DNA of 64,000 bases from Escherichia phage UPWr_E1: the sequence record PP418985.1; one strand, written 5' to 3'. Below the pieces are notes generated by a model. That model saw nothing but the letters and a program-made list of their open reading frames with translations. It was not told the origin of the DNA and ran no database searches. This document shows, one piece after another, positions 1,556 to 16,139 of the stretch (positions are counted from its first letter, which is position 1; each line of letters opens with the position of its first letter). The position numbers and the translations under genes were made by a program.

Positions 1556-3058
1556 TTAAATCTCGATTGTTTTCGTGGCATATTCGAATCGATCGGTGTT
1601 GTAAATTTTTATTCTTTCAAGCGCGTGTTTAAGAGCATAATTAAGGTGGCTAAACTGTTTCTTAGCATTCTTGCTCTTTGTCTTAACCGCCAAATGATCG
1701 ATAAGATCCCAAACGGTAGCAATATCCTTAGAACCATGTTTACGCAATGCACGACCGATACTCTGACGAACGATAGTTGATTCCTTCACTGGATGACCGA
1801 AAATAACATGATGCAAGTTCTTGATGGAAACACCAGTAGAGAACACACCATAAGACGCAACACAAATGATCCCTGTTTCCCCTTCCGCTAATTTCTTAAA
1901 TTCATCACGTTCTTCTGTCTTAACTCCACCGTCAATATAATAAACCTTGTCGTGTACCTTCTGCAACGCATCATACATAAGTTTTCCGTGCTTAGTATTG
2001 CGGAACATCAGGAATACGTTTTCGCCCTTCTTAGCGAGTTTTAGCGCCAAATTGCAAGCAAACTTATTTCGTCGTGGGTTAGACGTAATATACTTGATCT
2101 CTTCCGCATATTCTCTCCCCTTAACCGCGCTACATTCCTCATCGGTATAACGAAGGAAAAGACAGTTAATTTTCAGTTTTGTCACTTGGCCTTCTTCCAT
2201 CAGGCGGTCAATACTCACGATCTTAGAAATATCACCGAAAAGCCCGACATACTGCATCATGTTAGCTTTCCCGTCACGAGGGGAACCAGTCATGCCGATC
2301 TTAAATTGGCAATGATCCATATCAGTAACGATGTTTAGCAGGTTTTTAGCAGTGGCCTTGTGACATTCATCAACAATCACCATCCCGAATTGTTTAAACC
2401 ATTCACGAGGTTGTTTACATGCTGATTGCCACGTACTAACAACGATCAGGCGATCTCCTACATTCTTAGTAGTACCACTCATGATAGTATGAATTGCCTC
2501 ATAAGGAAACTGGCGATAATCAACAAAATCATCACGCATTTGCAGCACTAGCGACGTGGTAGGAACGATGATCAGCACTTTCCCTTCGTAGTTCTCTAAG
2601 TACCAGCGAGACAACATACAAGCAATCGCAGATTTACCAGCGGACGTAGGCAAAACTAACATACGGCGTTTATGATGAATACCTTCAAAGACAGCCTTTG
2701 ATTGATACCAATGCGGGGTGATCCTGTTAGCACCGGAATATAATTCTAAGTCGTTACACCATTTTGTAATTTCTTCTTCTGTAACCTGTTCTTTCTCGAA
2801 TAAGCGAGGGTCTACCCATACGCTATAGCCCATATTTTTAGCGAATATTCCCACGGTTTTAGTTAGGCCGATTGGCAACTTTCCATTGTAATCTAAAAGA
2901 CGAATACGCCCATCCCATCCGCCGTATTTTACTCGTTTTTGAAACCGTGCACCTTCAACTTCAAAGCTAAAATAATCCCTCATTTCTAATAAAATTGAAT
3001 CGCTACATTCAATTTGAACATGGGAGTAGTTCAGAAAGTGAATTTTAATATCTTGCAT
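1556..3058 (-). CDS. uvsW: UvsW SF2 DNA helicase
   Basis: Walker A LPTSAGKS, DECH box, helicase C motifs; collinear with recalled T4 UvsW starting MQDIKIHF; ORF-track start 3073 is a GTG extension. Confidence 0.9.
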   Translation of the reverse strand: MQDIKIHFLNYSHVQIECSDSILLEMRDYFSFEVEGARFQKRVKYGGWDGRIRLLDYNGKLPIGLTKTVGIFAKNMGYSVWVDPRLFEKEQVTEEEITKWCNDLELYSGANRITPHWYQSKAVFEGIHHKRRMLVLPTSAGKSAIACMLSRWYLENYEGKVLIIVPTTSLVLQMRDDFVDYRQFPYEAIHTIMSGTTKNVGDRLIVVSTWQSACKQPREWFKQFGMVIVDECHKATAKNLLNIVTDMDHCQFKIGMTGSPRDGKANMMQYVGLFGDISKIVSIDRLMEEGQVTKLKINCLFLRYTDEECSAVKGREYAEEIKYITSNPRRNKFACNLALKLAKKGENVFLMFRNTKHGKLMYDALQKVHDKVYYIDGGVKTEERDEFKKLAEGETGIICVASYGVFSTGVSIKNLHHVIFGHPVKESTIVRQSIGRALRKHGSKDIATVWDLIDHLAVKTKSKNAKKQFSHLNYALKHALERIKIYNTDRFEYATKTIEI

Positions 3059-3094
3059 AGCGAATAGCCTCACTCAATAAATACAGTATACAAA

Positions 3095-3102
3095 TATTTA
3101 TA
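3095..3102 (-). promoter_or_regulatory. T4-type late promoter TATAAATA (uvsW)
   Basis: tatttata on plus strand = TATAAATA on minus, 37 nt upstream of uvsW ATG. Confidence 0.55.
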
Positions 3103-3128
3103 CAAACACCCCCAATCAGGAGAATAAC

Positions 3129-3854
3129 ATGTTTGATAAAGAATATTTCGAAGAACTCCGCGCTATTGCGGCGTCCGACGACAAAGAAGCACAGAAAACA
3201 GCTAAAACAGAATTAGCTGACTACGCAAAACAATTTGATATCAAGGTCAAAAAGACGTTATCACTAGAGAACATGATCGAGTTCGTAGAAACCGAATTAA
3301 CTAAACTGGCTTCCGAAATGGAAGAAGAAACTCCGGCAGAAGGAACCAGTATTAACGATCTTATTCTGGCAGCAGATACCGCAGATGATAAAGTGGTATT
3401 CGACGAAGTTGATCCGTCTCTGGTTGAAGCAATGAAAGAACCCGAGATCGTCATTGAAGAAACAAAAGAAGAATCTCCAGCAGTTGAACCAGTGGTCGAA
3501 GAAGTTAAGTCAGTTGTTGAAGAAGCGCCGGAAGTTAAAGTGGAATCTCCGGTAGCCAACATTTTCTCCGACGAAGCAGAGCATCGTTCCCCAGCACATG
3601 ACACTGATTCATTTTGTGATCTTACTGGTTTCCGTCCGACCATTTGCTTGATCGGTGGCGGTCGTGGTTACTACTCCTGCCCGTGGTGGATTTTCGACTG
3701 GATTGTTAATACTCCAGATTGGAAGAAGTACCCAGAGCGTTTCCCGCACGCGTATGTACACGACACCCTCAAGTCACTGATCTATTATATCAAACGCGAT
3801 GGGTCTGTCAAGGTGCGAGAGACTAAACACAGCCAATTCCACACTCTTAAATAA
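3129..3854 (+). CDS. hypothetical protein with acidic E/V-rich centre and Cys/Trp-rich C-terminal domain; occupies T4 inh/segD position
   Basis: AGGAG RBS; 241 aa; synteny between uvsW and hoc; no motif recognised. Confidence 0.6.
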   Translation: MFDKEYFEELRAIAASDDKEAQKTAKTELADYAKQFDIKVKKTLSLENMIEFVETELTKLASEMEEETPAEGTSINDLILAADTADDKVVFDEVDPSLVEAMKEPEIVIEETKEESPAVEPVVEEVKSVVEEAPEVKVESPVANIFSDEAEHRSPAHDTDSFCDLTGFRPTICLIGGGRGYYSCPWWIFDWIVNTPDWKKYPERFPHAYVHDTLKSLIYYIKRDGSVKVRETKHSQFHTLK

Positions 3855-3932
3855 TAAGAGTGTAAAAGTTGTGAAATATTTGTTATGTTTTTAATTGTAG
3901 TTCCGTTATGCAATTAAAAAAGAGGATATTAC

Positions 3933-6476
3933 ATGTCTAACAAAATCAATGTATTACATCAAACAGAAGGTCCGGTTTATGGTTCCGTTGGTCGTCCACT
4001 TCTGTTAAAGATTGTTGTCAGTACAGCAGATTTTAAAGATTTTATAGCAGAATGGAAGCTGAACGGTGTAAATGTGCCAGCAGAACAAATTTCCGACGCG
4101 GATCAGTCTCTGTATATTGAGGAAATGCGAGAAAATCAATTTGGTACATATACATGTCACATTAAACTGAAAGACGAACCACAGGTCGGTGTAGATATTA
4201 AGCCTATTCTTGTACAGCGTAGATTTTTTATTGCACCGCAAGATCAGTCTCCGACGTATATTAAAAAACGAATCGGCGAAGAATTAACCCTATTCGCAAC
4301 ACCAGCAATTGAACTAGGTCAACACCCAGAGTTTCAATGGTATCGAAATCATATTCCGGTAGAACCAGAAAAAATCGAGGACAACCGAACCGTTCATATT
4401 GCCCGTGTTGGTCTTATTGATTTTGGCAATTATACGTGTCGTGTTACTGTCCGTGGTGAACCAGCATCACAATATTGGATTAATCCAATTATTGTAGAAA
4501 AGAATGATACCCCTCCTGTAGTGCATCTTAGCGAAGAATATCCTAGCTCTATTACAGTAGCAGAGGATTCAGCGGTACATCTCAATGTACTTGTTACATC
4601 AGATGATAAAGTATCGCCTATTGAGTATACGTGGATTCATAACGGTAGGATTGTTATCGAAGAAAACGGAAACTCTTTGGCAATTCCGCATATTCGAAAA
4701 GATCAGGAAGGTATCTGGCGTCTTGAGGTAAAACAAGGTGACACTACGGTGTATTCTAAAGATTGTCATATTGAGGTTGATAGTCAACCATTCTTTAGGA
4801 TCACACGTCAACCGCAAACTCTTAACGTGTCTGGCGGTGCTTTGGGTTTATTCAGCGTTGATTATAGAACAAACTATTCACCTGTAAAGATCCAGTGGTA
4901 TCGTAAAAAGAATACAGAACAGGAGTTTACACCAATTGTAGGTGAGACTAATAAAGATCTTCATATTACACCAGCTACTACTGAATTAAACCGAGCACGC
5001 TACAAAGCTCGTATCACGTATGGCACAGACCAATACAGAGATTCAGAAGAAGCTGAATTGCTAGTAGGTGAAGCATTAACTATTAGAATCACCAAACAAC
5101 CACAAGCTCTACAAAACGTCCGAGTTTCTTCCTCACAGACGATCACTTGTGAAGCTGAAACAAACTATGAACATTATCGCTTAGATTATCAGTGGTATAA
5201 AGATAACGAATTAATGCCAGGCAAAACATCTAATGTATTGCACTTCTCATCAATCAAAAAGACAGATGAGGGGCAATATAAGTGTATTGCATCAATGGGT
5301 ATTTCTGGTCATCGAATTACCGCAGAATCATCACCAGCACAGGTGACAGTAGACAATTCAAAGGCATCACTGACTATCACTAAACAGCCAACTGGTGCAA
5401 CAATTCGCACTGGTGGGTCGTGGTCTATTTCGGTCGAAGCAACATCAAACGATGCACTACCGATTCGCTATCGCTGGTTTAAAGACGGCGAAGATCTATT
5501 CCCACAAGGCGTTGAACAAAAAAACGTTTACGGTGAAGACCATGCTCAACCTGATTCGACTGGTGTATATACTTGTCGCGTTTCGGTTGGTTTTGGTGAT
5601 CACCGAGCGTCTCAAATGTCACATCCAGCAAGGGTGCTAATTAGCGATAATGTGGAAATTGTGCCGAATGACTTACAGGTCACCGCACATCCTCATGATA
5701 ATGACGTTAAGTATAATCAGCGTGTTATCTTAACAGCAAGATCTCAAAATAGCATCGGGTTAAAACCACATATTCAATGGAAAAAGGATGGTGTTGCTAT
5801 TCCGGGTGCAAATTCAGAGACTTTAGTCATTGAGCACGCGAAACCATTGGATGCAGGGGTTTACACCGCAGATATTACCGCAGCAGAAAAAACGGTAACA
5901 ACCAATCCGGCTACAGTTACTGTAGCAGAGCACAGCAATATTAATATCTTAAAACATCCAGTGGATGTGGTTGCAAAAGAAGGACAAACCACCGACATTG
6001 TATTGGAAGCTCATGCGGAACATTCTGACGGTGAAACCGAAGTTAGTTATCAGTGGCATAAAATTAAAGATGGCGTAGACACTGAAATAAGAGATGCAAC
6101 AAATAAAACTTTAGTTATCCCTCATGCACAGATCAGCAAGCAAGCTCATCAAGCGACCTATTACGCCGAGATAAAAGAAGAGAATGGACACGTTAAACAT
6201 AGCGAAAAAGTTCGAGTGGTGTTTACTACCGCGAAATTAAAACGCTATGTTCACCCGATCCCGTGGCGACGTACATCCTTCCAGTATCAAGGCTATTGGG
6301 TTATGGATGAGATTGATCGCTGTAATCGTGAAGGGCTTAACTGGCTTGAGGACTTTACGCACACCAAATATCCAGAAGAGATCGAAACTATTGCTGCATC
6401 ATTGCATCATTATTCAAATACTCATGTATTAGAATCTCGTAATGGTTATCTGGTTGATGGTACTCAACTATTTTAA
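3933..6476 (+). CDS. hoc: Hoc-like capsid decoration protein with ~7-8 Ig-like repeats and a shared C-terminal domain
   Basis: AGAGGA RBS; repeated W-Y/F-[KR]...G-x-Y-x-C Ig-like motifs (GNYTCRVTV, GQYKCIAS, GVYTCRVSV); C-terminal RYVHPIPWRRTSF...ESRNGY; hoc position. Confidence 0.7.
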   Translation: MSNKINVLHQTEGPVYGSVGRPLLLKIVVSTADFKDFIAEWKLNGVNVPAEQISDADQSLYIEEMRENQFGTYTCHIKLKDEPQVGVDIKPILVQRRFFIAPQDQSPTYIKKRIGEELTLFATPAIELGQHPEFQWYRNHIPVEPEKIEDNRTVHIARVGLIDFGNYTCRVTVRGEPASQYWINPIIVEKNDTPPVVHLSEEYPSSITVAEDSAVHLNVLVTSDDKVSPIEYTWIHNGRIVIEENGNSLAIPHIRKDQEGIWRLEVKQGDTTVYSKDCHIEVDSQPFFRITRQPQTLNVSGGALGLFSVDYRTNYSPVKIQWYRKKNTEQEFTPIVGETNKDLHITPATTELNRARYKARITYGTDQYRDSEEAELLVGEALTIRITKQPQALQNVRVSSSQTITCEAETNYEHYRLDYQWYKDNELMPGKTSNVLHFSSIKKTDEGQYKCIASMGISGHRITAESSPAQVTVDNSKASLTITKQPTGATIRTGGSWSISVEATSNDALPIRYRWFKDGEDLFPQGVEQKNVYGEDHAQPDSTGVYTCRVSVGFGDHRASQMSHPARVLISDNVEIVPNDLQVTAHPHDNDVKYNQRVILTARSQNSIGLKPHIQWKKDGVAIPGANSETLVIEHAKPLDAGVYTADITAAEKTVTTNPATVTVAEHSNINILKHPVDVVAKEGQTTDIVLEAHAEHSDGETEVSYQWHKIKDGVDTEIRDATNKTLVIPHAQISKQAHQATYYAEIKEENGHVKHSEKVRVVFTTAKLKRYVHPIPWRRTSFQYQGYWVMDEIDRCNREGLNWLEDFTHTKYPEEIETIAASLHHYSNTHVLESRNGYLVDGTQLF

Positions 6477-6482
6477 TATTAT

Positions 6483-6502
6483 TGGTCGCCCTTCGGGGCG
6501 AC
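6483..6502 (+). other. stem-loop GGTCGCCC-TTCG-GGGCGACC between the two hoc-like genes (no T-run)
   Basis: perfect 8-bp stem with UUCG tetraloop; lies inside the ORF-track N-terminal extension of the next gene. Confidence 0.5.
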
Positions 6503-6520
6503 CTTAACGGAGTTATTTTT

Positions 6521-7753
6521 ATGGCATTTACAGTAGCACTAAAATCAAATAAAAAATGTTTCCTTGCTGGCGATACATTTAAATTAACGGCTACATTAGC
6601 TGGGGTGGAAGATGGTCCGGTCCCATCAAATGTTACCTATGCATGGACTAAAAATGATCAGCCAATTGAAAATGAATCAAATGTATTAACGGTCTCTAAC
6701 GCAACAGCCGAGAGCGCCGGAAAATATAAAGTATCCGTTACTGACACAGACACACAAGAAGTGGTAGAATCTGCGGTTGTGTCAATGGCAGAAGCAGAAT
6801 TAGTAGTTAAAATTAATCATCCATCTAGCTACGTCGCATTCGATGAGGCGGTAGAATTAACAACTACGGTTTCATATTCAACCGGATTTGCACCGTCTAG
6901 CAATTACCAGTTGCATTATAAATGGGAACAAGATCAAACAAATTTAAACCATAGCGAAAGCACATTATCGATCAGCAACTTCGTCGATGACAACAATGGC
7001 GTTTATAAGGTTACTGTATGGGGCGAGTCAGAAACATCAGCGGACAGCGCCAGTGTTAAACTTGCAGCAATCTCTATATCTGTAGTTGAAGATGTACCAC
7101 TGGCAAAAACCGTCGCAATGGGTAAACCGATCACACTACCTTATCGCACGATGGGTGTTTCTATCGGTGACACGTCAGGTCTTCCGGCATTATCAACTAA
7201 ACAGTCATGGTATTTGCAGCGAGAAGGACAACCGCGCCCGACACTGATCGGGAGTGAGGTTGGGGAGGCATTGGAAGGGTTTTCTATCATGCCTAACGGC
7301 TATTTGCACAAAGAAGCTGCAACAATGGACGACACCGCTAACTTTTGGTGTATCGTAGAGTTGCTTCAAGAAATTGACGGGCAGCCAGTACCAATCGAAG
7401 AAAAAGGTAGCTCTCATTGCGCACTGGAAGTTGTAGAATCACTTCATAAGATGTTCCGGTATGTGCACCCGATCCCGTGGCGCAAAACTTCGTTTATCTA
7501 TATTGGATGGTGGGTATTCGACGAGATCGTTAAATTCAATGAGGCAGGGTTAGAATGGAGAAACCGTGAAGTTTACGAGGATAGCAAATATGCAAGCGAC
7601 ATCGAGACGATCGCGGCAGCGGAAGAAAAATATAGTGATTGCACTTGCATGGAATCTCGCAATGGTTTCATGTATCAGTCCAAAGAGTTCCATAAACTGG
7701 ACCGAGAGACATTAGAGCGTGTCCTGCGCATTCGTGAAACGCCTCCTGCTTAA
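6521..7753 (+). CDS. Hoc-like paralog (shorter Ig-like array, same C-terminal domain)
   Basis: GGAG RBS then ATG 6521; Ig-like motifs (GKYKVSVTD, GVYKVTVWG); C-terminal FRYVHPIPWRKTSF...ESRNGF, paralogous to 3933..6476. Confidence 0.65.
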   Translation: MAFTVALKSNKKCFLAGDTFKLTATLAGVEDGPVPSNVTYAWTKNDQPIENESNVLTVSNATAESAGKYKVSVTDTDTQEVVESAVVSMAEAELVVKINHPSSYVAFDEAVELTTTVSYSTGFAPSSNYQLHYKWEQDQTNLNHSESTLSISNFVDDNNGVYKVTVWGESETSADSASVKLAAISISVVEDVPLAKTVAMGKPITLPYRTMGVSIGDTSGLPALSTKQSWYLQREGQPRPTLIGSEVGEALEGFSIMPNGYLHKEAATMDDTANFWCIVELLQEIDGQPVPIEEKGSSHCALEVVESLHKMFRYVHPIPWRKTSFIYIGWWVFDEIVKFNEAGLEWRNREVYEDSKYASDIETIAAAEEKYSDCTCMESRNGFMYQSKEFHKLDRETLERVLRIRETPPA

Positions 7754-7764
7754 TGAAATCTATC

Positions 7765-7795
7765 AGCCATCCTTCGGGGTGGCTTTTTTGTTTTT
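7765..7795 (+). terminator. rho-independent terminator
   Basis: GCCATCC-TTCG-GGGTGGC followed by TTTTTTGTTTTT. Confidence 0.7.
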
Positions 7796-7800
7796 AGTGC

Positions 7801-7828
7801 TTGACAGTGTGATTTAGTGGCTTATAAT
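7801..7828 (+). promoter_or_regulatory. sigma70-type early promoter (TTGACA-16-TATAAT)
   Basis: consensus -35 and -10 hexamers directly after the terminator; leader ACACACATC resembles the repeated leader of the 49-64 kb modules. Confidence 0.6.
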
Positions 7829-7948
7829 GACACACATCAACAGGGCGTTACCCTATGAGGAAAATATTATGAATATGGGGTTGAAAATGGCTTTAATAAC
7901 TGTTACTGTCCTATTCGTTGTTGTGTTTATGAATGTATGAGGTGAAGT

Positions 7949-8146
7949 ATGAATGAGATTGTACGATTGATCAAAGAAACACCAATCGAGATGTATTTTC
8001 TGGCTTTGGTTGCAACAATGGTCTATCAGCTAGTCGCATGTCATGTATGGAAATCAGAAAATGCGTTTATCCGGTTTTTTGGTACTGTCATGATCCAGTT
8101 TCCGGTACTGATCACTATCCTGTTAATCGTCAATGAGGCGAAGTAA
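7949..8146 (+). CDS. small hydrophobic membrane protein
   Basis: GAGGTGA RBS; 65 aa with hydrophobic core. Confidence 0.5.
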   Translation: MNEIVRLIKETPIEMYFLALVATMVYQLVACHVWKSENAFIRFFGTVMIQFPVLITILLIVNEAK

Positions 8147-8421
8147 TGGACAAGAAAACAGCGTTAATGGTTTACATGCTACGCGAAGACCACGGTCTTA
8201 ATTTTGTTGATATTGCTAAAAAGATTGGCGGGTTCAGCGGACAAGATGCGGCTAAGGCATGGTTGATGGTAAAAGATGCACGAGAGGCTTACGCCAACCG
8301 TGAAAAGGTTGTTTATCGTAAACACCACATCAACAAAAAATTTAAAAATAAAGTTCAAAAACGTGTTGACAAGCCAAATAACACTGTTATAATGGACGCA
8401 TTCAAACGGGCAATGTCCTGA
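8146..8421 (+). CDS. basic hypothetical protein (possible HTH)
   Basis: ATGA start/stop overlap with upstream ORF; 91 aa, Lys-rich C-terminus. Confidence 0.5.
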   Translation: MDKKTALMVYMLREDHGLNFVDIAKKIGGFSGQDAAKAWLMVKDAREAYANREKVVYRKHHINKKFKNKVQKRVDKPNNTVIMDAFKRAMS

Positions 8422-8467
8422 TTTGTAATTAATATTCTGAATAACTAATCAATAGAGGTGACTAATT

Positions 8468-8905
8468 ATGAAATTCCGCAAAAACCACGTAGCAATGAAA
8501 AAAGCAATGTTTGAAGCATTCAAAGCAGTTGATCAGGGCGGTGTTACTCTGATTGAGCAAATTAATGTTGATGTTTGGCAGTCTCCGGCGATCACTTGCT
8601 CACGTCTGGCGACGGCTGGTCTTCTGAATGTTCACAGCTCTACAGCATACGACGAAGCATTGCAAGTTATTAAGGCTTTCGCTGGCGACGTTACCAGCAA
8701 GTGGGTCTATGAGAATAAAGGTGAAATTGCGGTTGCTCACGTAGGCAACAATATCCAGATGGAAATCAAGATTAAGGAAGGGTCTAAACGCAATCAGATG
8801 CTTGTTCGCTTCCAGCCATACAAAACTAACGTAGTGCCGGATGATCTGGTCATCTCTAAGAGTAATGTTACCATTCGCCGAAATCAGATCGTTATCAACA
8901 AATAA
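8468..8905 (+). CDS. hypothetical protein
   Basis: AGAGGTGA RBS; 145 aa; followed by a strong terminator. Confidence 0.6.
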   Translation: MKFRKNHVAMKKAMFEAFKAVDQGGVTLIEQINVDVWQSPAITCSRLATAGLLNVHSSTAYDEALQVIKAFAGDVTSKWVYENKGEIAVAHVGNNIQMEIKIKEGSKRNQMLVRFQPYKTNVVPDDLVISKSNVTIRRNQIVINK

Positions 8906-9141: not shown

Positions 9142-9197
9142 GATTAAATTATGATCAAAACGAAGACTTATCTTATAGAATAATAAAAATTTGTTTC
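9142..9197 (+). repeat. intergenic repeat copy B
   Basis: GATTAAATTATGATCAAAACGAAGA ... TAGAATAATAAAAATTTGTTTCG; 3' 23 nt identical to 46862-46884. Confidence 0.7.
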
Positions 9198-9319
9198 GAA
9201 CATTTATTAATCAATTACTAGAAGTGTTTTATTGCTCGCTGTGCTCGCTTCCGCTACGCGGATACTTGTATTTGTTATTAACTTGTAGTATGATATTGCT
9301 TTCTATGGAGGAAAATATT

Positions 9320-9907
9320 ATGTTTGACCAGTTACAAGATCTATTTGGAGTAAAACCACTTCGTAGATGTGCTTTAATCGGCTCTAGAAAAGCGCCTAGC
9401 GACATTTTGATAATGGCTAGTACCATTGGGAGGGTATTGTCAGAAAATCGCGTTGTAGCGCATTCTGGAGGGGCTTACGGTATGGACAATGCTTTCATGA
9501 AGTATTACGATCCAGATTATAGAAAAATTTTCATTCCAAATTGGAAGTTTTATGACCACAAGCATAACGGTCATGATGTGATTGCATGGCAAACCTTAGA
9601 ACAAAAGAATCTGGCGATGGATGAATTAGAACACGTTTATGATAATCCTCGTTCTATACCGTTATACATGCAAAATTTATTTTCTAGAAATGTTGCTCAA
9701 GTCTTAGGTGAGACACTTGATGATCCTGTAGATTGTGTGTTATTCTGGGCGAAAGAAGTTAATGGAATCGTTTCGGGAGGAACTCGAATTGCTGTTTATG
9801 TTGCCCGTAGACATGGGATACCATGTTTTAACTTATATCATCAAGAAAATAGATCCGCCGTCGAAAAAATCTTGGGCGGATCTGATTTGTCTTGGTTAGA
9901 TATTTAG
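9320..9907 (+). CDS. SLOG-superfamily (DprA/LOG-like) Rossmann-fold protein
   Basis: GGAGGA RBS then ATG 9320; GSRKAP ... HSGGAYGMDNAF resembles the DprA GSR/SGxAxGID motifs; ORF-track start 9191 has no RBS. Confidence 0.55.
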   Translation: MFDQLQDLFGVKPLRRCALIGSRKAPSDILIMASTIGRVLSENRVVAHSGGAYGMDNAFMKYYDPDYRKIFIPNWKFYDHKHNGHDVIAWQTLEQKNLAMDELEHVYDNPRSIPLYMQNLFSRNVAQVLGETLDDPVDCVLFWAKEVNGIVSGGTRIAVYVARRHGIPCFNLYHQENRSAVEKILGGSDLSWLDI

Positions 9908-11225: not shown

Positions 11226-11233
11226 AAATAAAA

Positions 11234-11386
11234 TTACTTCTTCCTAGAAACATTATCAACGCTACGGTTAACTTTGTTTACAAGATTAATTGCATGATCA
11301 GAACGAATAATTGCATAAGCTAATGCTAACATCAATTCGTCGTATTCCTTACGAGTCATAACATAGCTGTTTTCTTTCTTACTCAT
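11234..11386 (-). CDS. small hypothetical protein (50 aa)
   Basis: AAGGAGG RBS 5 nt before ATG; last gene of the inserted module. Confidence 0.45.
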   Translation of the reverse strand: MSKKENSYVMTRKEYDELMLALAYAIIRSDHAINLVNKVNRSVDNVSRKK

Positions 11387-11396
11387 GCATTCCTCC

Positions 11397-12329
11397 TTAT
11401 GGAGAATTTGGGGTTAATTCAGGGAACAGCGTGCCAAAACCAAAATTACCGCTAGCGTCACGCTGGAATGTCATAACAAGGTCGACATAAACCGGATCTG
11501 TAAATCTATCAAATCTATCCGACCCAATATCAACCATGAACGCTAATTTAATCTCATTAGAATTTGAGATCGCAGCGTCAGCACATGCACCAAAAATTAC
11601 CTGAGTATCTTTTGCCGTATATGCATTGACCTGTATGTTGGTTGGTTTCATTACATCGTTAGACAAACCAGATAGTTCTACTCGTCCATTAAATGACGCC
11701 AGACTTTGACCACCGCCTAGATAATGAATATGACCACCTTGTGAAGATTGTGTCCAGTCCATTAGCATAACCTTAAATCTAGCCTCAAAACGCCCTTCCA
11801 CGTAATATCGACCAGTTTCAAAGTTTTGTCTAATTGGTGTCCATGTGATGTGTGGTTTTCCGCTTACAGGATCGACAAGAGTCACACCTACGGCTGGCTT
11901 AATACTGACACTATCAAATGAACGTGATAGCCAATTCCATGTTTGATTGTCTAGGTTTGGCAATTGTGGAATATTCAATCCATCTAATCGGCTGTGTGCT
12001 CGTGCTGCTTCCGATTCTGCGGTAGTCGCTTTAGTCAGTGCATCAGTTGCTTTGCTCATGGATTGCCCTGCCGTTCGATCGGCAACATCAGCAGTTGATT
12101 TTGCAATCTCTGCCGTTCGATGTGCTGAACTTGCTGTTTCTGTTATTACGTCATCGCACGCAATAACAAAATCAATTACAGGATCGATCAATTGAGTGTT
12201 GATTGAGTTGGAAATTCGTTCAACATCACTTTCCATTAGAGCATTAGATTCATTTCCTGTGAAATGAGTAATTTCACCTTGAACAAAATCATTTTGCAAC
12301 TTGCTGATCTTTGCTTTAATATCGGTCAT
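11397..12329 (-). CDS. fiber-like protein with Ala/Thr-rich helical N-terminal region and globular C-terminal domain
   Basis: GGGGTGA RBS; 310 aa; TAEIAKSTADVADRTAGQS...ATDALTKATTAESEAARAH resembles side-tail-fiber stalks; not in the T4 23-24 interval. Confidence 0.7.
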   Translation of the reverse strand: MTDIKAKISKLQNDFVQGEITHFTGNESNALMESDVERISNSINTQLIDPVIDFVIACDDVITETASSAHRTAEIAKSTADVADRTAGQSMSKATDALTKATTAESEAARAHSRLDGLNIPQLPNLDNQTWNWLSRSFDSVSIKPAVGVTLVDPVSGKPHITWTPIRQNFETGRYYVEGRFEARFKVMLMDWTQSSQGGHIHYLGGGQSLASFNGRVELSGLSNDVMKPTNIQVNAYTAKDTQVIFGACADAAISNSNEIKLAFMVDIGSDRFDRFTDPVYVDLVMTFQRDASGNFGFGTLFPELTPNSP

Positions 12330-12344
12330 GAATCACCCCGCTAA

Positions 12345-14063
12345 TTATTGTGCTTGCTCTGGAAGTGCTTGTATATTTTCTATAGTAGCACCCCATTTAA
12401 CGGCATTTAAACGAGCTTTGTGCATATCGTCTTCTCCGACTATTGCCGCAAAACCCTTTTTAGCGTGGAAATTCGCCCATGTGTTATATGCTAGTGCACC
12501 TACGCGTTTTGCTGTGTCGTGTTCAACTTCATCAACCATCAGCATTGTGCGGAAAGGTGCAAATGCTACATCTGGGTTATCGTCTTGTGTCCATGAACCA
12601 CCATTAAACGACACCTGCCACCTGAACATCTCACCAGACGGAATTTGATTAATTCTCAACTTTAGAGATCTTGTTTTCTGGTTTTTCTGAGTTACGTCTA
12701 GTGGAACCTGATATCTAGCCGCTTGTCGTTCTCTACCATCATTCATCCTATGCCATGCGGTAACAACAAGCATAACCGGAATTGTGTTTGATGTTTTAAT
12801 AAAACTAACATCAACTAAAAGTTCCATATCATAGCTACCAGATTTAGGCGCAACCCACCAATGGTCGGCATCAGCTTGTCGATCTGGCTCTTTAATCTGT
12901 GGTGTGCATCCATAGTTATCATGAATGACATACTTCCACGGAATGTAAAAAGCACCACCGCCAGTTCCTGGATTTGTAACTTCGAGTAGATTTTGTGCAG
13001 TGGTAAACACGCTTGACACGCGAGGGAAAGCATAAATGGTAGCACCACCAGTGTGATCGCTGATCTGTAACCATTCGGTCCATCGATCAGTTCTCTTTGT
13101 ATAGGAACGGTGATACATTACGCCATCAATGCTTGTTGCGATCTGCAATACATGATCTTTACATGCATGAACATCTACAGAACCATGTGTTTGTGTTCCA
13201 TTTGGACGGTTTGCCGACCCCTCAAAGTAACAGAAACGGCCTTGTTTAGTCAAGGTGTTTAGGTCTAGCGTTTCTGGCGAAATTTCCGGTAGACGTTTAC
13301 CCAGACTGGTTAACATCGCCTCCTGATCACCATTTAAACCACCGCCACCACTTCCTTCCCCGCTTTGAGAGTTCCACTCACGCCATGCACCATTGTGTCG
13401 GATGCGAGAGTAAACACCACCATCAATAGAACGGACCACTTGAAGAATGCTACCATCGACGACATATACATCTGCGGACCCCTTATTCGCCATCATTGGA
13501 GGTTTGCCATAGGTTGCATCACCTACCGGATAGCGTCCGGGTGATGTGGTTACATCCAGATTGTTAATTGGATTCGTCGTAGTCCATTTTACCTCAATTG
13601 CAGATAGACGCTGCGCAACGTTCGCTAATACTTCTGGTACTGGAAATACAAGAGATTCCTGTGTTCCGTCTGAGTACGTGACTTCTAGAGTCCAGTTGCG
13701 ATCGTCCTCGGACAAATTCGCTTCGATTCTAGCAATGCCACGACCATTTTCGCCCTTCTCACCAGGAATACCCTGTTCACCCTGAATAACCCAGGTCATA
13801 TCGACCCATTTTGATTTATCGTAGGGAGATTGTGCTGTTTTACCAGTCCATAATTGGAGTTTTTCGCCACAAACAATAATTGTTTTTAGTCTTTCCAATT
13901 CTGGAAAATGTTCGGTAAAATATTCATCCCTAGCTTCTTCATTTTCGAAACGGTGAGTATTTTTAATTCCGCTAGGTACGTTAGTTCCGATCTGAATACC
14001 ACCACCAGAACAACCACCACTCACGGAACCAGCATTAATGATAGCTTGTGGATTTAGCTTCAT
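12345..14063 (-). CDS. fiber-like protein with collagen-like Gly-X-Y run and two knob-like repeats
   Basis: GGGGGT RBS then ATG 14063; GEQGIPGEKGENGRG; two repeats of ...DG-x-x-Y-x-R...W-x-E-W (SIDGGVYSRIRHNGAWREW, SIDGVMYHRSYTKRTDRWTEW) typical of pyocin/tail-fiber knob domains. Confidence 0.75.
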   Translation of the reverse strand: MKLNPQAIINAGSVSGGCSGGGIQIGTNVPSGIKNTHRFENEEARDEYFTEHFPELERLKTIIVCGEKLQLWTGKTAQSPYDKSKWVDMTWVIQGEQGIPGEKGENGRGIARIEANLSEDDRNWTLEVTYSDGTQESLVFPVPEVLANVAQRLSAIEVKWTTTNPINNLDVTTSPGRYPVGDATYGKPPMMANKGSADVYVVDGSILQVVRSIDGGVYSRIRHNGAWREWNSQSGEGSGGGGLNGDQEAMLTSLGKRLPEISPETLDLNTLTKQGRFCYFEGSANRPNGTQTHGSVDVHACKDHVLQIATSIDGVMYHRSYTKRTDRWTEWLQISDHTGGATIYAFPRVSSVFTTAQNLLEVTNPGTGGGAFYIPWKYVIHDNYGCTPQIKEPDRQADADHWWVAPKSGSYDMELLVDVSFIKTSNTIPVMLVVTAWHRMNDGRERQAARYQVPLDVTQKNQKTRSLKLRINQIPSGEMFRWQVSFNGGSWTQDDNPDVAFAPFRTMLMVDEVEHDTAKRVGALAYNTWANFHAKKGFAAIVGEDDMHKARLNAVKWGATIENIQALPEQAQ

Positions 14064-14070
14064 ATAATAA

Positions 14071-14379
14071 TTACCCCCGTTTAGCAAGATACACGGTTAC
14101 AGTAGAATCATTGGAAACAGATTTTACTTTTGCCCTAATAAATGACCATAATGTTTCAAACGCTCCACCATCAGTTGCATATTCATTACCATCAGCTTTC
14201 AATTCTGAAATAGTGAACCAACCTTTGCCATCTAAGGAACCTTCTAACGAGGCTTCCGCAATGACTTTTTGCCCTTCCCGTGCACCCTCTACGGTCATCT
14301 GTACTGTCATGTGCGTACTATGAACGCAGTTTACCGACGCGGAAACGGCTGGAGTTTTGGTCTTTATAAGTGTGTGCAT
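14071..14379 (-). CDS. hypothetical protein (102 aa), first gene of the fiber-like module
   Basis: AAGGGGAG RBS; preceded by late promoter TATAAATA and the gp23 terminator. Confidence 0.6.
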   Translation of the reverse strand: MHTLIKTKTPAVSASVNCVHSTHMTVQMTVEGAREGQKVIAEASLEGSLDGKGWFTISELKADGNEYATDGGAFETLWSFIRAKVKSVSNDSTVTVYLAKRG

Positions 14380-14417
14380 CTAATTTTCGCTCCCCTTAGA
14401 ATATAGGCTTGCAACCT

Positions 14418-14425
14418 TATTTATA
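14418..14425 (-). promoter_or_regulatory. T4-type late promoter TATAAATA (fiber-like module)
   Basis: tatttata on plus strand, 39 nt upstream of the ATG at 14379. Confidence 0.6.
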
Positions 14426-14440
14426 ACGGGATATAATACG

Positions 14441-14470
14441 CAAAAAGGGAAGACCCTTTCGAGTCTTCCC
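14441..14470 (-). terminator. rho-independent terminator downstream of gene 23
   Basis: GGGAAGAC-tcgaaag-GTCTTCCC followed by TTTTTG on minus strand. Confidence 0.7.
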
Positions 14471-14540
14471 TTTGGAATTAACACTTTACACTGTCATAAG
14501 GTTTATGATAAGTCGGGCATTGCACCCGACCGGAGTTTAA

Positions 14541-16139
14541 TTAGCAACCTTTAACCCATACACGGCGGAAGTATGCGTTTTTACCTACGCTGTCTTTGCT
14601 CAACATACCGGAGGTGATGCGAGCGGACGGTGCCTGGGTTTTGCTGTCTGCAAACGGGTTAATACCGATGCCGTAGCGAGTCTTGAAGCCCAGAACCGGG
14701 TGGAAAGACTGCGGATCGGTTGCACGCAGCGGAGTCAGAGCAACATACGGCGCATAGTAGATACCAGCATCCATTTCGTTGTCGCCTTTGTAGCCTACGG
14801 TGAAGTAGTCCTGACGAGCATACTGGTCGATGAATACTTTGTACTTACCAGCCAGAACACCAGCGAAAACAGCTTTAGTGGTGTCGGTATTCAGACCTTT
14901 TGCAGCACCCTGCATAGCAACACTGATACCCTGATCAGCAGAAGCCAGAATGTTTACAACGTTACGGGAAGCGATAACAAAGTTACCAGCACCGCGACCA
15001 GTCTGACGAGCGATTTCAGCAGCTTCTTTGTCGATCTGGTAGATCAGAGATTTGAAGGATTCACCAGCCCAACGAGCACCGCGAGTATCGATCGGGTCTT
15101 GCAGGTCAAATACACCAGCTTTAGAACCAACGGTCTGAGTCATACCAGTCTTACCAACCTGTGCGGTAAAGTTGATAACGTCAACGATTTCACGGTTGAT
15201 TTCCAGCAGAACTTCGTTAGCCAGGATAGCATTCAGTTCAGCGTCAGCATCCATACCGTGTACAGCACGCAGATCCTGCGCAACTTCGATAGAATAACGA
15301 GCTTTCAGTTGGCGAGATTTCGCTTCAACAACCTGTTTGTCAATACGCATCGACATTTCAGCCCACGGGTTATTGCTGGAACCGTTAAAGCCTTCCTGAA
15401 TTTCGGCAATGGAAGTAGCCATACCGAAAGCGATTTCAGCCAGTTTACCTTCTTCCATCAGCTTCATGACCACTTCATCTTCGGATTCATCACCTGATTT
15501 CTGCGGAGTTACTGCGCTAGAAGTTACGTTTTGCAGATATGCAATACCAGTGTCTGCAAACGTGTGATGTACAATGTCTCCCGGTTGGATCTGGGTAGAT
15601 AATGCCAGTTTAGCGAATGCAGTACCAGTAGGAGAACCAGTCGTTGCATTTTTTGCTGCCAGAGAGCTATGGAACACATCTGGCGCATACATCGGGTGGA
15701 ATGCTTCACGAACATTTTTAGGATTACCACCAGCCAGCGGGTCTGGACCGTATACAGAACGGATTGCAAAGATCTGGCTAGTCGGGGTGCTCATAGGCTG
15801 AACGCCACAAATATCAAATGCAATCAGGTTAGGAATAGCACGGCGAACCATACCGATAACAGCCGGACCTACGTTAGTGATTGCACCGCTAGTCTGACCT
15901 GCCGCAATCTGGGATGCGTCGTAACCGTGGTCGCCAGCAACTTCGGCTTCGGCGATAAAACCACCGAATGCTTCAACAACTTTTTCATCCTTATAGATCG
16001 GATCTACAGCAAAATCCGCTTCCTGAGATTCCAGAATTTTAGCAACCAGTTTCTGCTTAGACGCAGTTGCGATTTCCGGCAGTTTTTCGTTCTCCAGCAG
16101 CGGGGACCATTTTTCCATCAGTTCTTTGGTAGTTTTCAT
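14541..16139 (-). CDS. 23: major capsid protein gp23
   Basis: 532 aa; long identical blocks with recalled T4 gp23 (RRAIPNLIAFDICGVQPM, IDKQVVEAKSRQLKA, GARWAGESFK, YFTVGYKG...DAGIYYAPYVALTPLR). Confidence 0.95.
   Translation of the reverse strand: MKTTKELMEKWSPLLENEKLPEIATASKQKLVAKILESQEADFAVDPIYKDEKVVEAFGGFIAEAEVAGDHGYDASQIAAGQTSGAITNVGPAVIGMVRRAIPNLIAFDICGVQPMSTPTSQIFAIRSVYGPDPLAGGNPKNVREAFHPMYAPDVFHSSLAAKNATTGSPTGTAFAKLALSTQIQPGDIVHHTFADTGIAYLQNVTSSAVTPQKSGDESEDEVVMKLMEEGKLAEIAFGMATSIAEIQEGFNGSSNNPWAEMSMRIDKQVVEAKSRQLKARYSIEVAQDLRAVHGMDADAELNAILANEVLLEINREIVDVINFTAQVGKTGMTQTVGSKAGVFDLQDPIDTRGARWAGESFKSLIYQIDKEAAEIARQTGRGAGNFVIASRNVVNILASADQGISVAMQGAAKGLNTDTTKAVFAGVLAGKYKVFIDQYARQDYFTVGYKGDNEMDAGIYYAPYVALTPLRATDPQSFHPVLGFKTRYGIGINPFADSKTQAPSARITSGMLSKDSVGKNAYFRRVWVKGC

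What the first reader, a model, noticed from the sequence alone, without database searches (positions are those of the whole stretch)
3933..7753. Two tandem Hoc-like capsid decoration genes with different Ig-like arrays but a shared C-terminal domain
T4 has one hoc gene at this position. Here an 847-aa protein with about 7-8 Ig-like repeats is followed by a 410-aa paralog with about 3 repeats, separated by a stem-loop. Both end in a homologous ~80-aa domain (YVHPIPWR[RK]TSF...G[YW]WV.DEI...IETIAA...ESRNG) that I interpret as the capsid-binding module. This looks like display-domain diversification on a common capsid anchor.
Basis: partly seen in the sequence, partly recalled or inferred. Interest (0 to 1): 0.65.

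Follow-up and report, generated by a model that had tools for sequence, protein, structure and literature searches.

The report
Two tandem Hoc capsid-fibre genes
This RB49-like (Krischvirus) coliphage carries two adjacent genes for Hoc head-decoration fibres, a long one with eight Ig-like domains and a short one with three, both ending in the Hoc capsid-anchor domain; this is real, but phages with two Hoc genes are already described.

Summary
ORFs 3933-6476 (847 aa) and 6521-7753 (410 aa) lie in tandem between inh and gene 24 of a Krischvirus (RB49/Phi1-like) genome. The short protein is the ortholog of RB49 Hoc (PDB 3shs, E 5e-99). Both C-termini match the capsid-binding domain of T4 Hoc (residues 292-366; E about 1e-12). 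Both keep the ESRNG loop and the conserved contact residues. An AlphaFold model shows eight Ig-like domains in the long protein.

It is not new in kind. Five GenBank Krischvirus genomes have the same pair (JK32, SSG23, SFHK24, Brandy, G2248). Fokine et al. 2023 already describe phages with a long and a short Hoc that share the anchor.

Details added here:
- Most sequenced RB49-like phages keep only a deletion relic of the long gene.
- The Ig arrays are old, deeply diverged alleles under purifying selection (dN/dS about 0.1), while the flanks are 94-100% identical.
- Long and short alleles assort independently.
- A C(UUCG)G hairpin between the genes is conserved with compensatory changes.

Presence of either protein in virions was not tested.

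The parts
3129..3854 (+). inh (inhibitor of prohead protease), upstream neighbour, same strand; probably the first gene of the transcription unit
   Evidence: PHROG 1051 at E 6.6e-77. Annotated as inh in Phi1 and JK32.
3933..6227 (+). Long hoc, N-terminal array of 8 Ig-like domains. Approximate domain boundaries (aa): 1-95, 96-192, 193-286, 287-379, 380-476, 477-572, 573-665, 666-765.
   Evidence: Pfam Ig_3 1.9e-43 and I-set 3.5e-23. Eight-unit self-alignment. AlphaFold model with 8 beta-sandwich blocks, pLDDT 80-92. Foldseek best hits are strings of Ig domains: contactin, Robo2, DSCAM, titin, E down to 3e-32.
6228..6476 (+). Long hoc, C-terminal Hoc capsid-binding domain (aa 766-847) plus stop codon
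   Evidence: Matches T4 Hoc residues 292-366, E 1.9e-12. PHROG 1149, 14282 and 11091 'Hoc-like head decoration'. 95-98% identical in JK32, SSG23 and Brandy while the Ig array is 50-70%. dN/dS 0.01-0.06.
6484..6503 (+). Intergenic C(UUCG)G hairpin: 8-bp G+C-rich stem, UUCG tetraloop
   Evidence: Fold of -18.4 kcal/mol, z -3.5. Conserved in all six two-hoc loci with compensatory stem changes; followed by a T-run in the other five loci but not in this window. Annotated as a putative terminator in G2248.
6521..7450 (+). Short hoc, 3 Ig-like domains (aa 1-310); ortholog of RB49 Hoc domains 1-3
   Evidence: 3shs_A at E 5.1e-99, aligned over residues 1-305. Pfam Ig_3 and Ig_2. At most 56.5% identical to any of 58 Krischvirus records.
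6575..7198 (+). Allele-swap block inside short hoc: the only part of the locus that differs from metagenome contig L006, which is otherwise about 95% identical in DNA
   Evidence: blastn breakpoints and sliding identity of 54-59% inside against 94-100% outside.
7451..7753 (+). Short hoc, C-terminal Hoc capsid-binding domain (aa 311-410) plus stop codon. It has about 20 residues more after the ESRNG loop than the long paralog.
   Evidence: Matches T4 Hoc residues 264-363, E 5e-13. Alignment A2.
7765..7794 (+). Terminator-like hairpin (AGCCATCC-TTCG-GGGTGGCT) followed by TTTTTGTTTT; likely end of the inh-hoc-hoc transcription unit
   Evidence: Consensus scan only.
15072..15128 (-). Codons 338-356 of gp23 (gene at 14541-16139, minus strand). 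They correspond to the T4 gp23 Gly326-Arg344 loop that forms the Hoc docking site.
   Evidence: Alignment to T4 gp23 (6uzc_a): GSKAGVFDLQDPIDTRGAR against GSKAGVFDFQDPIDIRGAR, 17 of 19 identical, with D336, P337 and R344 kept. The site is defined in PMC10385173.

Best explanation
These are two functional paralogous Hoc head-decoration genes of a Krischvirus. Each encodes a monomeric fibre: a string of Ig-like domains (8 in the long, 3 in the short) held to the capsid by the same kind of C-terminal anchor domain. By homology with T4 Hoc, each anchor should dock at the centre of a gp23 hexamer, one fibre per hexamer. The two proteins would then compete for the same sites and produce a mixed coat. 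Scaling from the published 180 A for the 3-Ig T4 Hoc, the short fibres would be about 18 nm and the long ones about 40 nm. The Ig arrays would act as weak, exchangeable adhesion or surface-property modules (bacterial surface, mucus glycans, virion dispersion). The arrays exist as old, deeply diverged alleles. Homologous recombination moves them between otherwise near-identical phages, using the conserved anchor-coding segments and flanks. The genes are probably co-transcribed with inh. The conserved intergenic C(UUCG)G hairpin probably acts as a leaky terminator or mRNA-stabilising element that helps set the long:short ratio. Shown here: the gene structures, homology of both anchors to the T4 Hoc capsid-binding domain, the Ig folds, purifying selection on both genes, allele swapping, hairpin conservation, and conservation of the gp23 docking loop. 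Inferred: virion incorporation, competition for one site, fibre lengths, ligands, and the role of the hairpin.
For: - ORFs and synteny.
- The short protein is the RB49 Hoc ortholog (3shs, 5e-99).
- Both anchors hit T4 Hoc residues 292-366. Both keep Y293, H295, R300, W310, D313 and ESRNG, which are the gp23-contact or loop-stabilising residues listed in PMC10385173.
- The gp23 docking loop is 17/19 identical to T4.
- RB49 Hoc binds T4 capsids in vitro (PMC10385173).
- Eight Ig domains in the long protein.
- Both genes are under purifying selection. Window against L006, long Ig array: 95 synonymous against 22 non-synonymous differences, dN/dS 0.06. All other comparisons give 0.01-0.15.
- Thirteen 90%-identity clusters of the long protein all keep 841-847 aa.
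- DNA identity to relatives falls from 94-100% in the flanks to 50-70% in the Ig arrays and recovers to 86-96% in the anchor-coding parts.
- L006 pairs the window-type long allele (98%) with a JK32-type short allele (98.5%).
- The hairpin is conserved with compensatory changes.
Against: - There are no proteomic or structural data for either protein in any two-hoc Krischvirus.
- The two anchors are only 49% identical and differ at some T4 contact positions: W309 is Y in the long protein, Q354 is L or M, H299 is W in both. The short one has an extra C-terminal tail. Identical site preference and affinity are therefore not guaranteed.
- The AlphaFold model is poor in parts of the long anchor (residues 771-787 and 835-847, pLDDT below 50).
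- The long protein is less acidic (pI 5.8) than typical Hocs (4-5).
- 53 of 58 sequenced Krischvirus isolates have lost the long gene, so it is dispensable, at least on laboratory hosts.
- No exact late promoter (TATAAATA) lies on the + strand upstream of either hoc gene, so the transcription model is weak.
Confidence: 0.8

Rival explanations
1. Both proteins are made and bind the capsid but do not compete. Their diverged anchors prefer different subsets of capsomers (for example vertex-proximal against mid-face hexamers, or cap against cylindrical part), or the long one binds elsewhere on the virion. This would give a patterned coat rather than a random mixed one.
For: The anchors are only 49% identical and differ at T4 contact positions W309 and Q354. 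The short anchor has a ~20-residue longer tail after ESRNG. [quoted passage not shown]
Against: All the highly conserved contact residues and the ESRNG loop are kept in both proteins. There is only one gp23, with one conserved docking loop. RB49 Hoc, about 40% identical to T4 Hoc in this domain, still binds T4 capsids, so the site tolerates this level of divergence.
Confidence: 0.12
2. The long gene is a dispensable duplicate on its way to loss. It is little expressed or not assembled and contributes nothing to the virion; only the short Hoc matters.
For: 53 of 58 Krischvirus records keep only a relic of the long gene: its first 12-34 codons joined to its last ~37 codons. They share one 3' deletion junction, and the relic has eroded further in KFS-EC, TB34 and JSE. 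Hoc is non-essential in T4 (PMC10385173).
Against: Where it is present, the 2.5-kb ORF is intact. Its length is constant (841-847 aa) across 13 clusters that have diverged to 56% identity. dN/dS is 0.06-0.14 in the Ig array and 0.01-0.06 in the anchor. It has a good Shine-Dalgarno sequence (GAGG). That pattern requires long-term selection on the protein.
Confidence: 0.05
3. The sequence diversity of the Ig arrays comes from an active diversification mechanism (diversity-generating retroelement or local hypermutation) rather than from old alleles and recombination.
For: There is a sharp island of divergence in otherwise 94-100% identical genomes.
Against: Synonymous sites are saturated (dS above 2) and dN/dS is about 0.1 across the whole 2.3-kb array. 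There is no template/variable repeat pair and no tandem DNA repeat in 3000-8200. Discrete allele classes recur almost unchanged in independent genomes: JK32/SSG23/Brandy at 94-96%, window/L006 at 98%.
Confidence: 0.01

Closest known systems
RB49 Hoc (PDB 3shs; Krischvirus type phage)
   Same: The 410-aa protein is its ortholog. It has the same length class (404-410 aa), the same position, three Ig-like domains plus the anchor, and 64% overall identity to Phi1 Hoc with about 90% in the anchor.
   Different: The Ig part is a different allele, at most 56.5% identical to any of 58 database Krischvirus Hocs. RB49 and Phi1 lack the intact upstream long paralog and keep only its relic, ORF168.1.
Long plus short Hoc pair of Krischvirus JK32, SSG23, SFHK24, Brandy and G2248 (GenBank)
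   Same: Identical architecture and position: 846 aa + 408/409 aa, an intergenic UUCG hairpin, and the same flanking genes. In JK32 both are already annotated 'head outer capsid protein'.
   Different: The window's Ig arrays are different alleles: long 64-69% and short 61-67% amino-acid identity, while the flanks are 93-100% identical in DNA. A 98% match to the long protein exists only in a metagenome contig.
Two-Hoc phages described by Fokine et al. 2023 (Serratia phage Muldoon: 1174 aa with 10 Ig + 314 aa with 2 Ig; Enterobacter phage PG7)
   Same: [quoted passage not shown]
   Different: Different genera and different domain counts. One PG7 paralog carries a lipase/acylhydrolase domain with the anchor at its N-terminus. 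That paper gives no population-level analysis (alleles, loss, recombination).
T4 Hoc (376 aa; 155 copies per capsid, one per gp23 hexamer)
   Same: The anchor domain is homologous, with conserved contact residues and the ESRNG loop. There is an Ig-like string, the genomic position next to inh matches, and the gp23 docking loop is conserved.
   Different: T4 has a single hoc gene (established knowledge of the T4 genome). Its Ig domains show almost no sequence similarity to these arrays (domain 1 score 6 bits).

Membership tests
Hoc (highly immunogenic outer capsid protein) family of T4-like phages | C-terminal domain homologous to the T4 Hoc capsid-binding domain (T4 residues about 281-376) | tested here: met
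   Long: 5vf3_Z residues 292-366, E 1.9e-12. Short: residues 264-363, E 5e-13. Both match PHROG 1149, 14282 and 11091.
Hoc (highly immunogenic outer capsid protein) family of T4-like phages | Conserved ESRNG loop and conserved gp23-contact or loop-stabilising residues (T4 Y293, H295, R300, W309, W310, D313) | tested here: met
   Alignment A2, with the residue list from PMC10385173. All are identical in both paralogs except W309, which is Y in the long protein and W in the short. Less conserved contacts change conservatively: Y304 to F, W306 to Y, Y360 to Y (long) or F (short).
Hoc (highly immunogenic outer capsid protein) family of T4-like phages | String of Ig-like domains N-terminal to the anchor | tested here: met
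   Long: 8 domains. Short: 3 domains, by alignment to crystal structure 3shs.
Hoc (highly immunogenic outer capsid protein) family of T4-like phages | Gene located in the head-gene region next to inh, in a phage with a T4-type gp23 capsid that carries the Hoc docking loop | tested here: met
   Gene order uvsW / inh / hoc-long / hoc-short / 24.3 / 24. gp23 matches T4 gp23 at E 3e-234, with the G326-R344 loop 17/19 identical.
Hoc (highly immunogenic outer capsid protein) family of T4-like phages | Acidic protein (pI about 4-5), reported as characteristic of Hoc homologs | tested here: inconclusive
   Short pI 4.75, as expected. Long pI 5.8 (5.6-5.8 in all five relatives), with one basic domain (D4, pI 9.0). 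This is a typical property, not a strict criterion.
Hoc (highly immunogenic outer capsid protein) family of T4-like phages | Physically bound to the mature capsid, one monomer at the centre of each gp23 hexamer; dispensable for infectivity | not testable with these tools
   Needs virion proteomics, cryo-EM or in vitro binding. Indirect support for dispensability only: the long gene has been lost naturally in most isolates.

The most novel reading that the evidence does not exclude
The capsid is a two-tier, combinatorially reprogrammable adhesion surface. Long (about 40 nm) and short (about 18 nm) Hoc fibres compete for the same hexamer sites. The conserved intergenic hairpin sets their ratio. 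Each tier is an independently exchangeable allelic cassette maintained by balancing selection in gut phage populations. The frequent loss of the long tier in RB49-like isolates then marks adaptation to a different niche or to laboratory-type hosts. Near-isogenic natural phages with and without the long fibre would make the long-debated natural function of Hoc directly testable.
Probability: 0.3. Interest if true: 0.55.

Novelty: new member of a known kind. Interest (0 to 1): 0.33.

Why it matters
Hoc is a classic model for phage capsid decoration, for phage display, and for the idea that phages adhere to mucus. Its natural role is still argued. This locus adds no new principle, but it offers a convenient natural system. 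Closely related Krischvirus phages differ almost only in which long and short Hoc alleles they carry, or in whether the long one is present at all. RB49, the reference phage for the Hoc crystal structure, turns out to carry a relic of a second, much longer Hoc. The system could be used to test what Ig-fibre length and allele identity do for adsorption, mucus retention or virion dispersion. It also suggests that two different cargo fibres could be displayed together on one capsid.

Tried and rejected
- **Late promoters.** No exact TATAAATA lies on the + strand upstream of inh or of either hoc gene. There are only one-mismatch matches at 3076-3083 and 3089-3096, upstream of inh. Transcription control therefore stays inferred.
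- **The hairpin as a canonical intrinsic terminator.** In this window it lacks the T-run, and the scan did not call it. Relatives do have a T-run. It is left as a leaky terminator or RNA-stability element.
- **DGR or hypermutation.** Rejected.
- **Recent positive selection on the Ig arrays.** Not supported: dN/dS is about 0.1. Synonymous sites are saturated between allele classes, so site-specific positive selection cannot be excluded.
- **One-to-one orthology between the Ig domains of the long and short proteins.** BLASTP aligns long 511-840 colinearly with short 38-384 at 28% identity. Domain-by-domain scores are only modest across the paralogs (z 3-6). They are stronger within each protein: L1-L2, L4-L5-L6, L5-L7, L7-L8, S1-S2. 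Only the anchor is robustly shared.
- **Literature searches.** Searches for 'Hoc1/Hoc2/second Hoc/Hoc paralog' returned only unrelated papers. Krischvirus+Hoc and RB49-like+Hoc gave no paper discussing the tandem pair. The supplementary files held for Fokine 2023 do not list JK32, G2248 or Brandy.
- **Not attempted.** A deeper structure prediction of the anchor alone was not run, because the sequence match to the solved T4 domain is already unambiguous.
Full report
**1. What is there**

The window is part of a T4-type phage of the genus Krischvirus (RB49/Phi1/JSE group). Window 8000-30000 is 93-95% identical in DNA to many such genomes. The local gene order is gp25, uvsY, uvsW(-), inh, [two ORFs], small ORFs including 24.3, a DprA-like gene, and gene 24(-). 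This matches the annotated Phi1 and JK32 loci.

The long one is 3933-6476 (847 aa). The short one ends at 7753. Its mechanical ORF starts at a TTG at 6482. The ATG at 6521 is the real start: it is preceded by GGAG and gives MAFTV..., identical to the N-terminus of RB49 Hoc in PDB 3shs.

**2. Are they Hoc?**

The 410-aa protein aligns end to end with the crystallised three-Ig fragment of RB49 Hoc (3shs_A, E 5e-99). Its C-terminal ~100 residues align with T4 Hoc residues 264-363 (E 5e-13). The last 91 residues of the 847-aa protein, searched alone, hit only T4 Hoc, at residues 292-366 (E 1.9e-12). Both proteins match PHROG 1149 and other 'Hoc-like head decoration' families.

In a four-way alignment, both paralogs keep T4 Y293, H295, R300, W310, D313 and the E355-S-R-N-G359 loop. 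According to the cryo-EM analysis of Fokine et al. 2023, these are the conserved residues that contact gp23 or hold the contact loop in shape (PMC10385173). Other contacts change conservatively: Y304 to F, W306 to Y, and W309 to Y in the long protein only.

The phage's gp23 keeps the Hoc docking loop, T4 G326-R344, at 17 of 19 positions, including D336, P337 and R344.

**3. The Ig arrays**

- Pfam finds Ig_3, Ig_2 and I-set domains in both proteins.
- The long protein divides into eight in-register units of 92-100 aa, each with the conserved Trp and the Y-x-C/A signature.
- An AlphaFold2 model built on 14 homologs shows eight confident beta-sandwich blocks (pLDDT mostly 80-92). A partly helical C-terminal domain follows, and its terminal strands are poorly predicted.
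- Foldseek against the PDB returns strings of Ig domains: contactin-2, Robo2, DSCAM and titin, with E down to 3e-32.
- Within the long protein, neighbouring domains are most alike (L1-L2, L4-L5-L6, L5-L7, L7-L8). This suggests old internal duplications. Similarity between long and short domains is weak.
- There is no repeat at the DNA level.

The long protein is 96 kDa with pI 5.8. The short one is 46 kDa with pI 4.75.

**4. Both genes are maintained by selection**

A search of 5.8 billion proteins found 13 clusters of the long protein. One is 98% identical to the window's; the others are 56-69% identical. All are 841-847 aa long.

Nei-Gojobori estimates give dN/dS of 0.06-0.14 in the Ig arrays and 0.01-0.09 in the anchors. 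Against the near-identical allele on metagenome contig L006, the long Ig array shows 95 synonymous and 22 non-synonymous differences. The long gene is therefore not a pseudogene here.

**5. A divergence island made of old alleles that are exchanged**

I compared the window with JK32, SSG23, Brandy and G2248. DNA identity is 94-100% through uvsW/inh and downstream of 7600. It falls to 50-70% across both Ig arrays. It recovers to 86-96% in the two anchor-coding segments.

Synonymous divergence is saturated in the arrays (dS above 2) but only about 0.13 in inh. These are anciently diverged alleles placed in a young genomic background. They are not products of rapid or targeted mutation.

Contig L006 carries the window-type long allele (98%) next to a JK32-type short allele (98.5%). 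The window's own short allele is only 66% identical to that one. The exchanged block maps to window 6575-7198. The two tiers therefore assort independently by recombination. The Ig part of the window's short allele is at most 56.5% identical to any of 58 Krischvirus records.

**6. Distribution and history**

Five of the 58 Krischvirus records have the intact pair: SSG23, SFHK24, JK32, Brandy and G2248. In JK32 both genes are already annotated 'head outer capsid protein'.

The other records, including RB49, Phi1 and JSE, keep a relic. It consists of the first 12-34 codons of the long gene fused out of frame to its last ~37 codons (Phi1 ORF168.1; PHROGs 19377 and 32100). All four relics examined share the same 3' junction. 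KFS-EC, TB34 and JSE carry a further 75-bp loss on the 5' side. This points to one ancestral ~2.3-kb deletion followed by erosion. The tandem pair is thus ancestral for the genus, and the single-hoc state of RB49 is derived.

Across all phages, 1343 records contain a Hoc anchor and there are 1595 places in total. Second copies also occur in other groups, for example Klebsiella and Enterobacter phages of about 176 kb.

**7. The intergenic hairpin**

GGTCGCCC-UUCG-GGGCGACC (6484-6503) folds at -18.4 kcal/mol with z -3.5. All six two-hoc loci keep a C(UUCG)G hairpin at this place, with different but complementary stems: GCCGACC/GGTCGGC, and GACCGGCC/GGTCGGTC with one G-U pair. In the other five loci a T-run follows, and G2248's annotators called it a terminator. 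In this window only two T's follow.

A second UUCG hairpin with a T-run follows the short gene at 7765-7794. I found no exact late promoter on the + strand before either hoc gene.

The most economical reading is one inh-hoc-hoc transcript, with the internal hairpin acting as a partial terminator or stabiliser. This is inference only. From general knowledge, such CUUCGG hairpins are common between T4 cistrons.

**8. Mechanism proposed**

Both proteins assemble on the expanded capsid through the same kind of anchor at hexamer centres. They therefore compete for the sites and give a mixed coat of short and long Ig fibres. The published length of the 3-Ig T4 Hoc is 180 A; eight domains would give roughly 40 nm (my scaling).

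The Ig tiers would supply weak, exchangeable binding or surface properties. The published proposals for Hoc are binding to bacterial surfaces, mucus glycans, and pH-dependent dispersion.

Rivals:
- distinct site preferences of the two anchors (possible, since the anchors are only 49% identical);
- a dispensable duplicate (argued against by purifying selection);
- active hypermutation (rejected).

**9. Comparison with what is known, and novelty**

Fokine et al. 2023 state that Hoc architecture, a conserved C-terminal anchor plus a variable Ig string, is preserved in hundreds of phages. They report that Ig domains vary greatly even among close relatives. They also report that some phages encode two Hoc-like proteins of different length on the same anchor: Muldoon (1174 aa with 10 Ig, plus 314 aa with 2 Ig) and PG7. 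The exact Krischvirus gene pair is already in GenBank.

The finding is therefore a new member (new alleles) of a known kind. Four details appear to be unreported in the searched literature:
- the relic of a long Hoc in RB49-type phages;
- the quantitative allele-island pattern with purifying selection;
- the independent assortment of the two tiers;
- the covarying intergenic hairpin.

These are useful but incremental.

**10. Verdict**

Interest is about 0.33. Virion proteomics and competition binding would settle the remaining inference.

Noticed in passing
window 11228-14540 (minus-strand ORFs 11397-12329, 310 aa, and 12345-14087, about 572-580 aa), between gene 24 and gene 23: This ~2.7-kb block is complete in exactly the same five phage records that have the intact long hoc (SSG23, SFHK24, Brandy, G2248, JK32). 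It is reduced to its ends (about 15%) in the other 53 Krischvirus records. The 310-aa protein has an alanine-zipper/coiled-coil hit, and its last 40 aa equal a 45-aa relic ORF family (phrog_20809). The ~580-aa protein has no Pfam hit, only a weak unknown-function PHROG hit, and a short collagen-like run GEQGIPGEKGENGRG. They may be further accessory virion proteins lost together with the long Hoc, or simply a second deletion in the same clade.
   Followed up: partly
L003 (Phi1) 4001-4260; L007, L008, L009 equivalent: RB49, Phi1, JSE, KFS-EC and TB34 carry a relic of the long hoc (annotated ORF168.1 / RB49p168.2 / EpJSE_00174). They share one 3' deletion junction next to a CAAATA microhomology, and three of them have a further 75-bp loss. 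The intergenic hairpin has also lost its 5' arm there.
   Followed up: yes
window 3784-3811 (minus strand) and 7801-7828 (plus strand): There are two perfect sigma-70 consensus promoters (TTGACA-16-TATAAT, 12/12). One is antisense inside the 3' end of inh and points towards uvsW. The other lies just after the hoc terminator-like hairpin and points into the small ORFs at 7949-8905. The scan found fewer promoter-like sites overall than in shuffles, so only these two exact matches stand out.
   Followed up: no
window 3095-3102 (minus strand): An exact T4-type late promoter motif, TATAAATA, lies about 22 nt upstream of the uvsW start (GTG at 3073, minus strand). No exact late motif exists on the plus strand for inh or the hoc genes.
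   Followed up: no
window 9191-9907 (plus strand): The mechanical 238-aa ORF (TTG start) corresponds to a 195-aa gene annotated as a DprA-like DNA recombination-mediator protein in Phi1 and SSG23. The true start is probably the internal ATG (MFDQLQ...). A DprA-like gene in the head-gene cluster of a lytic T4-type phage is unusual.
   Followed up: no
phage collection, e.g. KT321315.1 phiEap-3, PP002985.1 KP1LMA, PP738775.1 Lemur_ER36, PQ096440.1 EnA02: Klebsiella and Enterobacter T4-like phages of about 174-178 kb also show two separate Hoc-anchor matches per genome. Overall there are 1595 anchor places in 1343 records, so a second Hoc-anchor copy is fairly common outside Krischvirus.
   Followed up: partly
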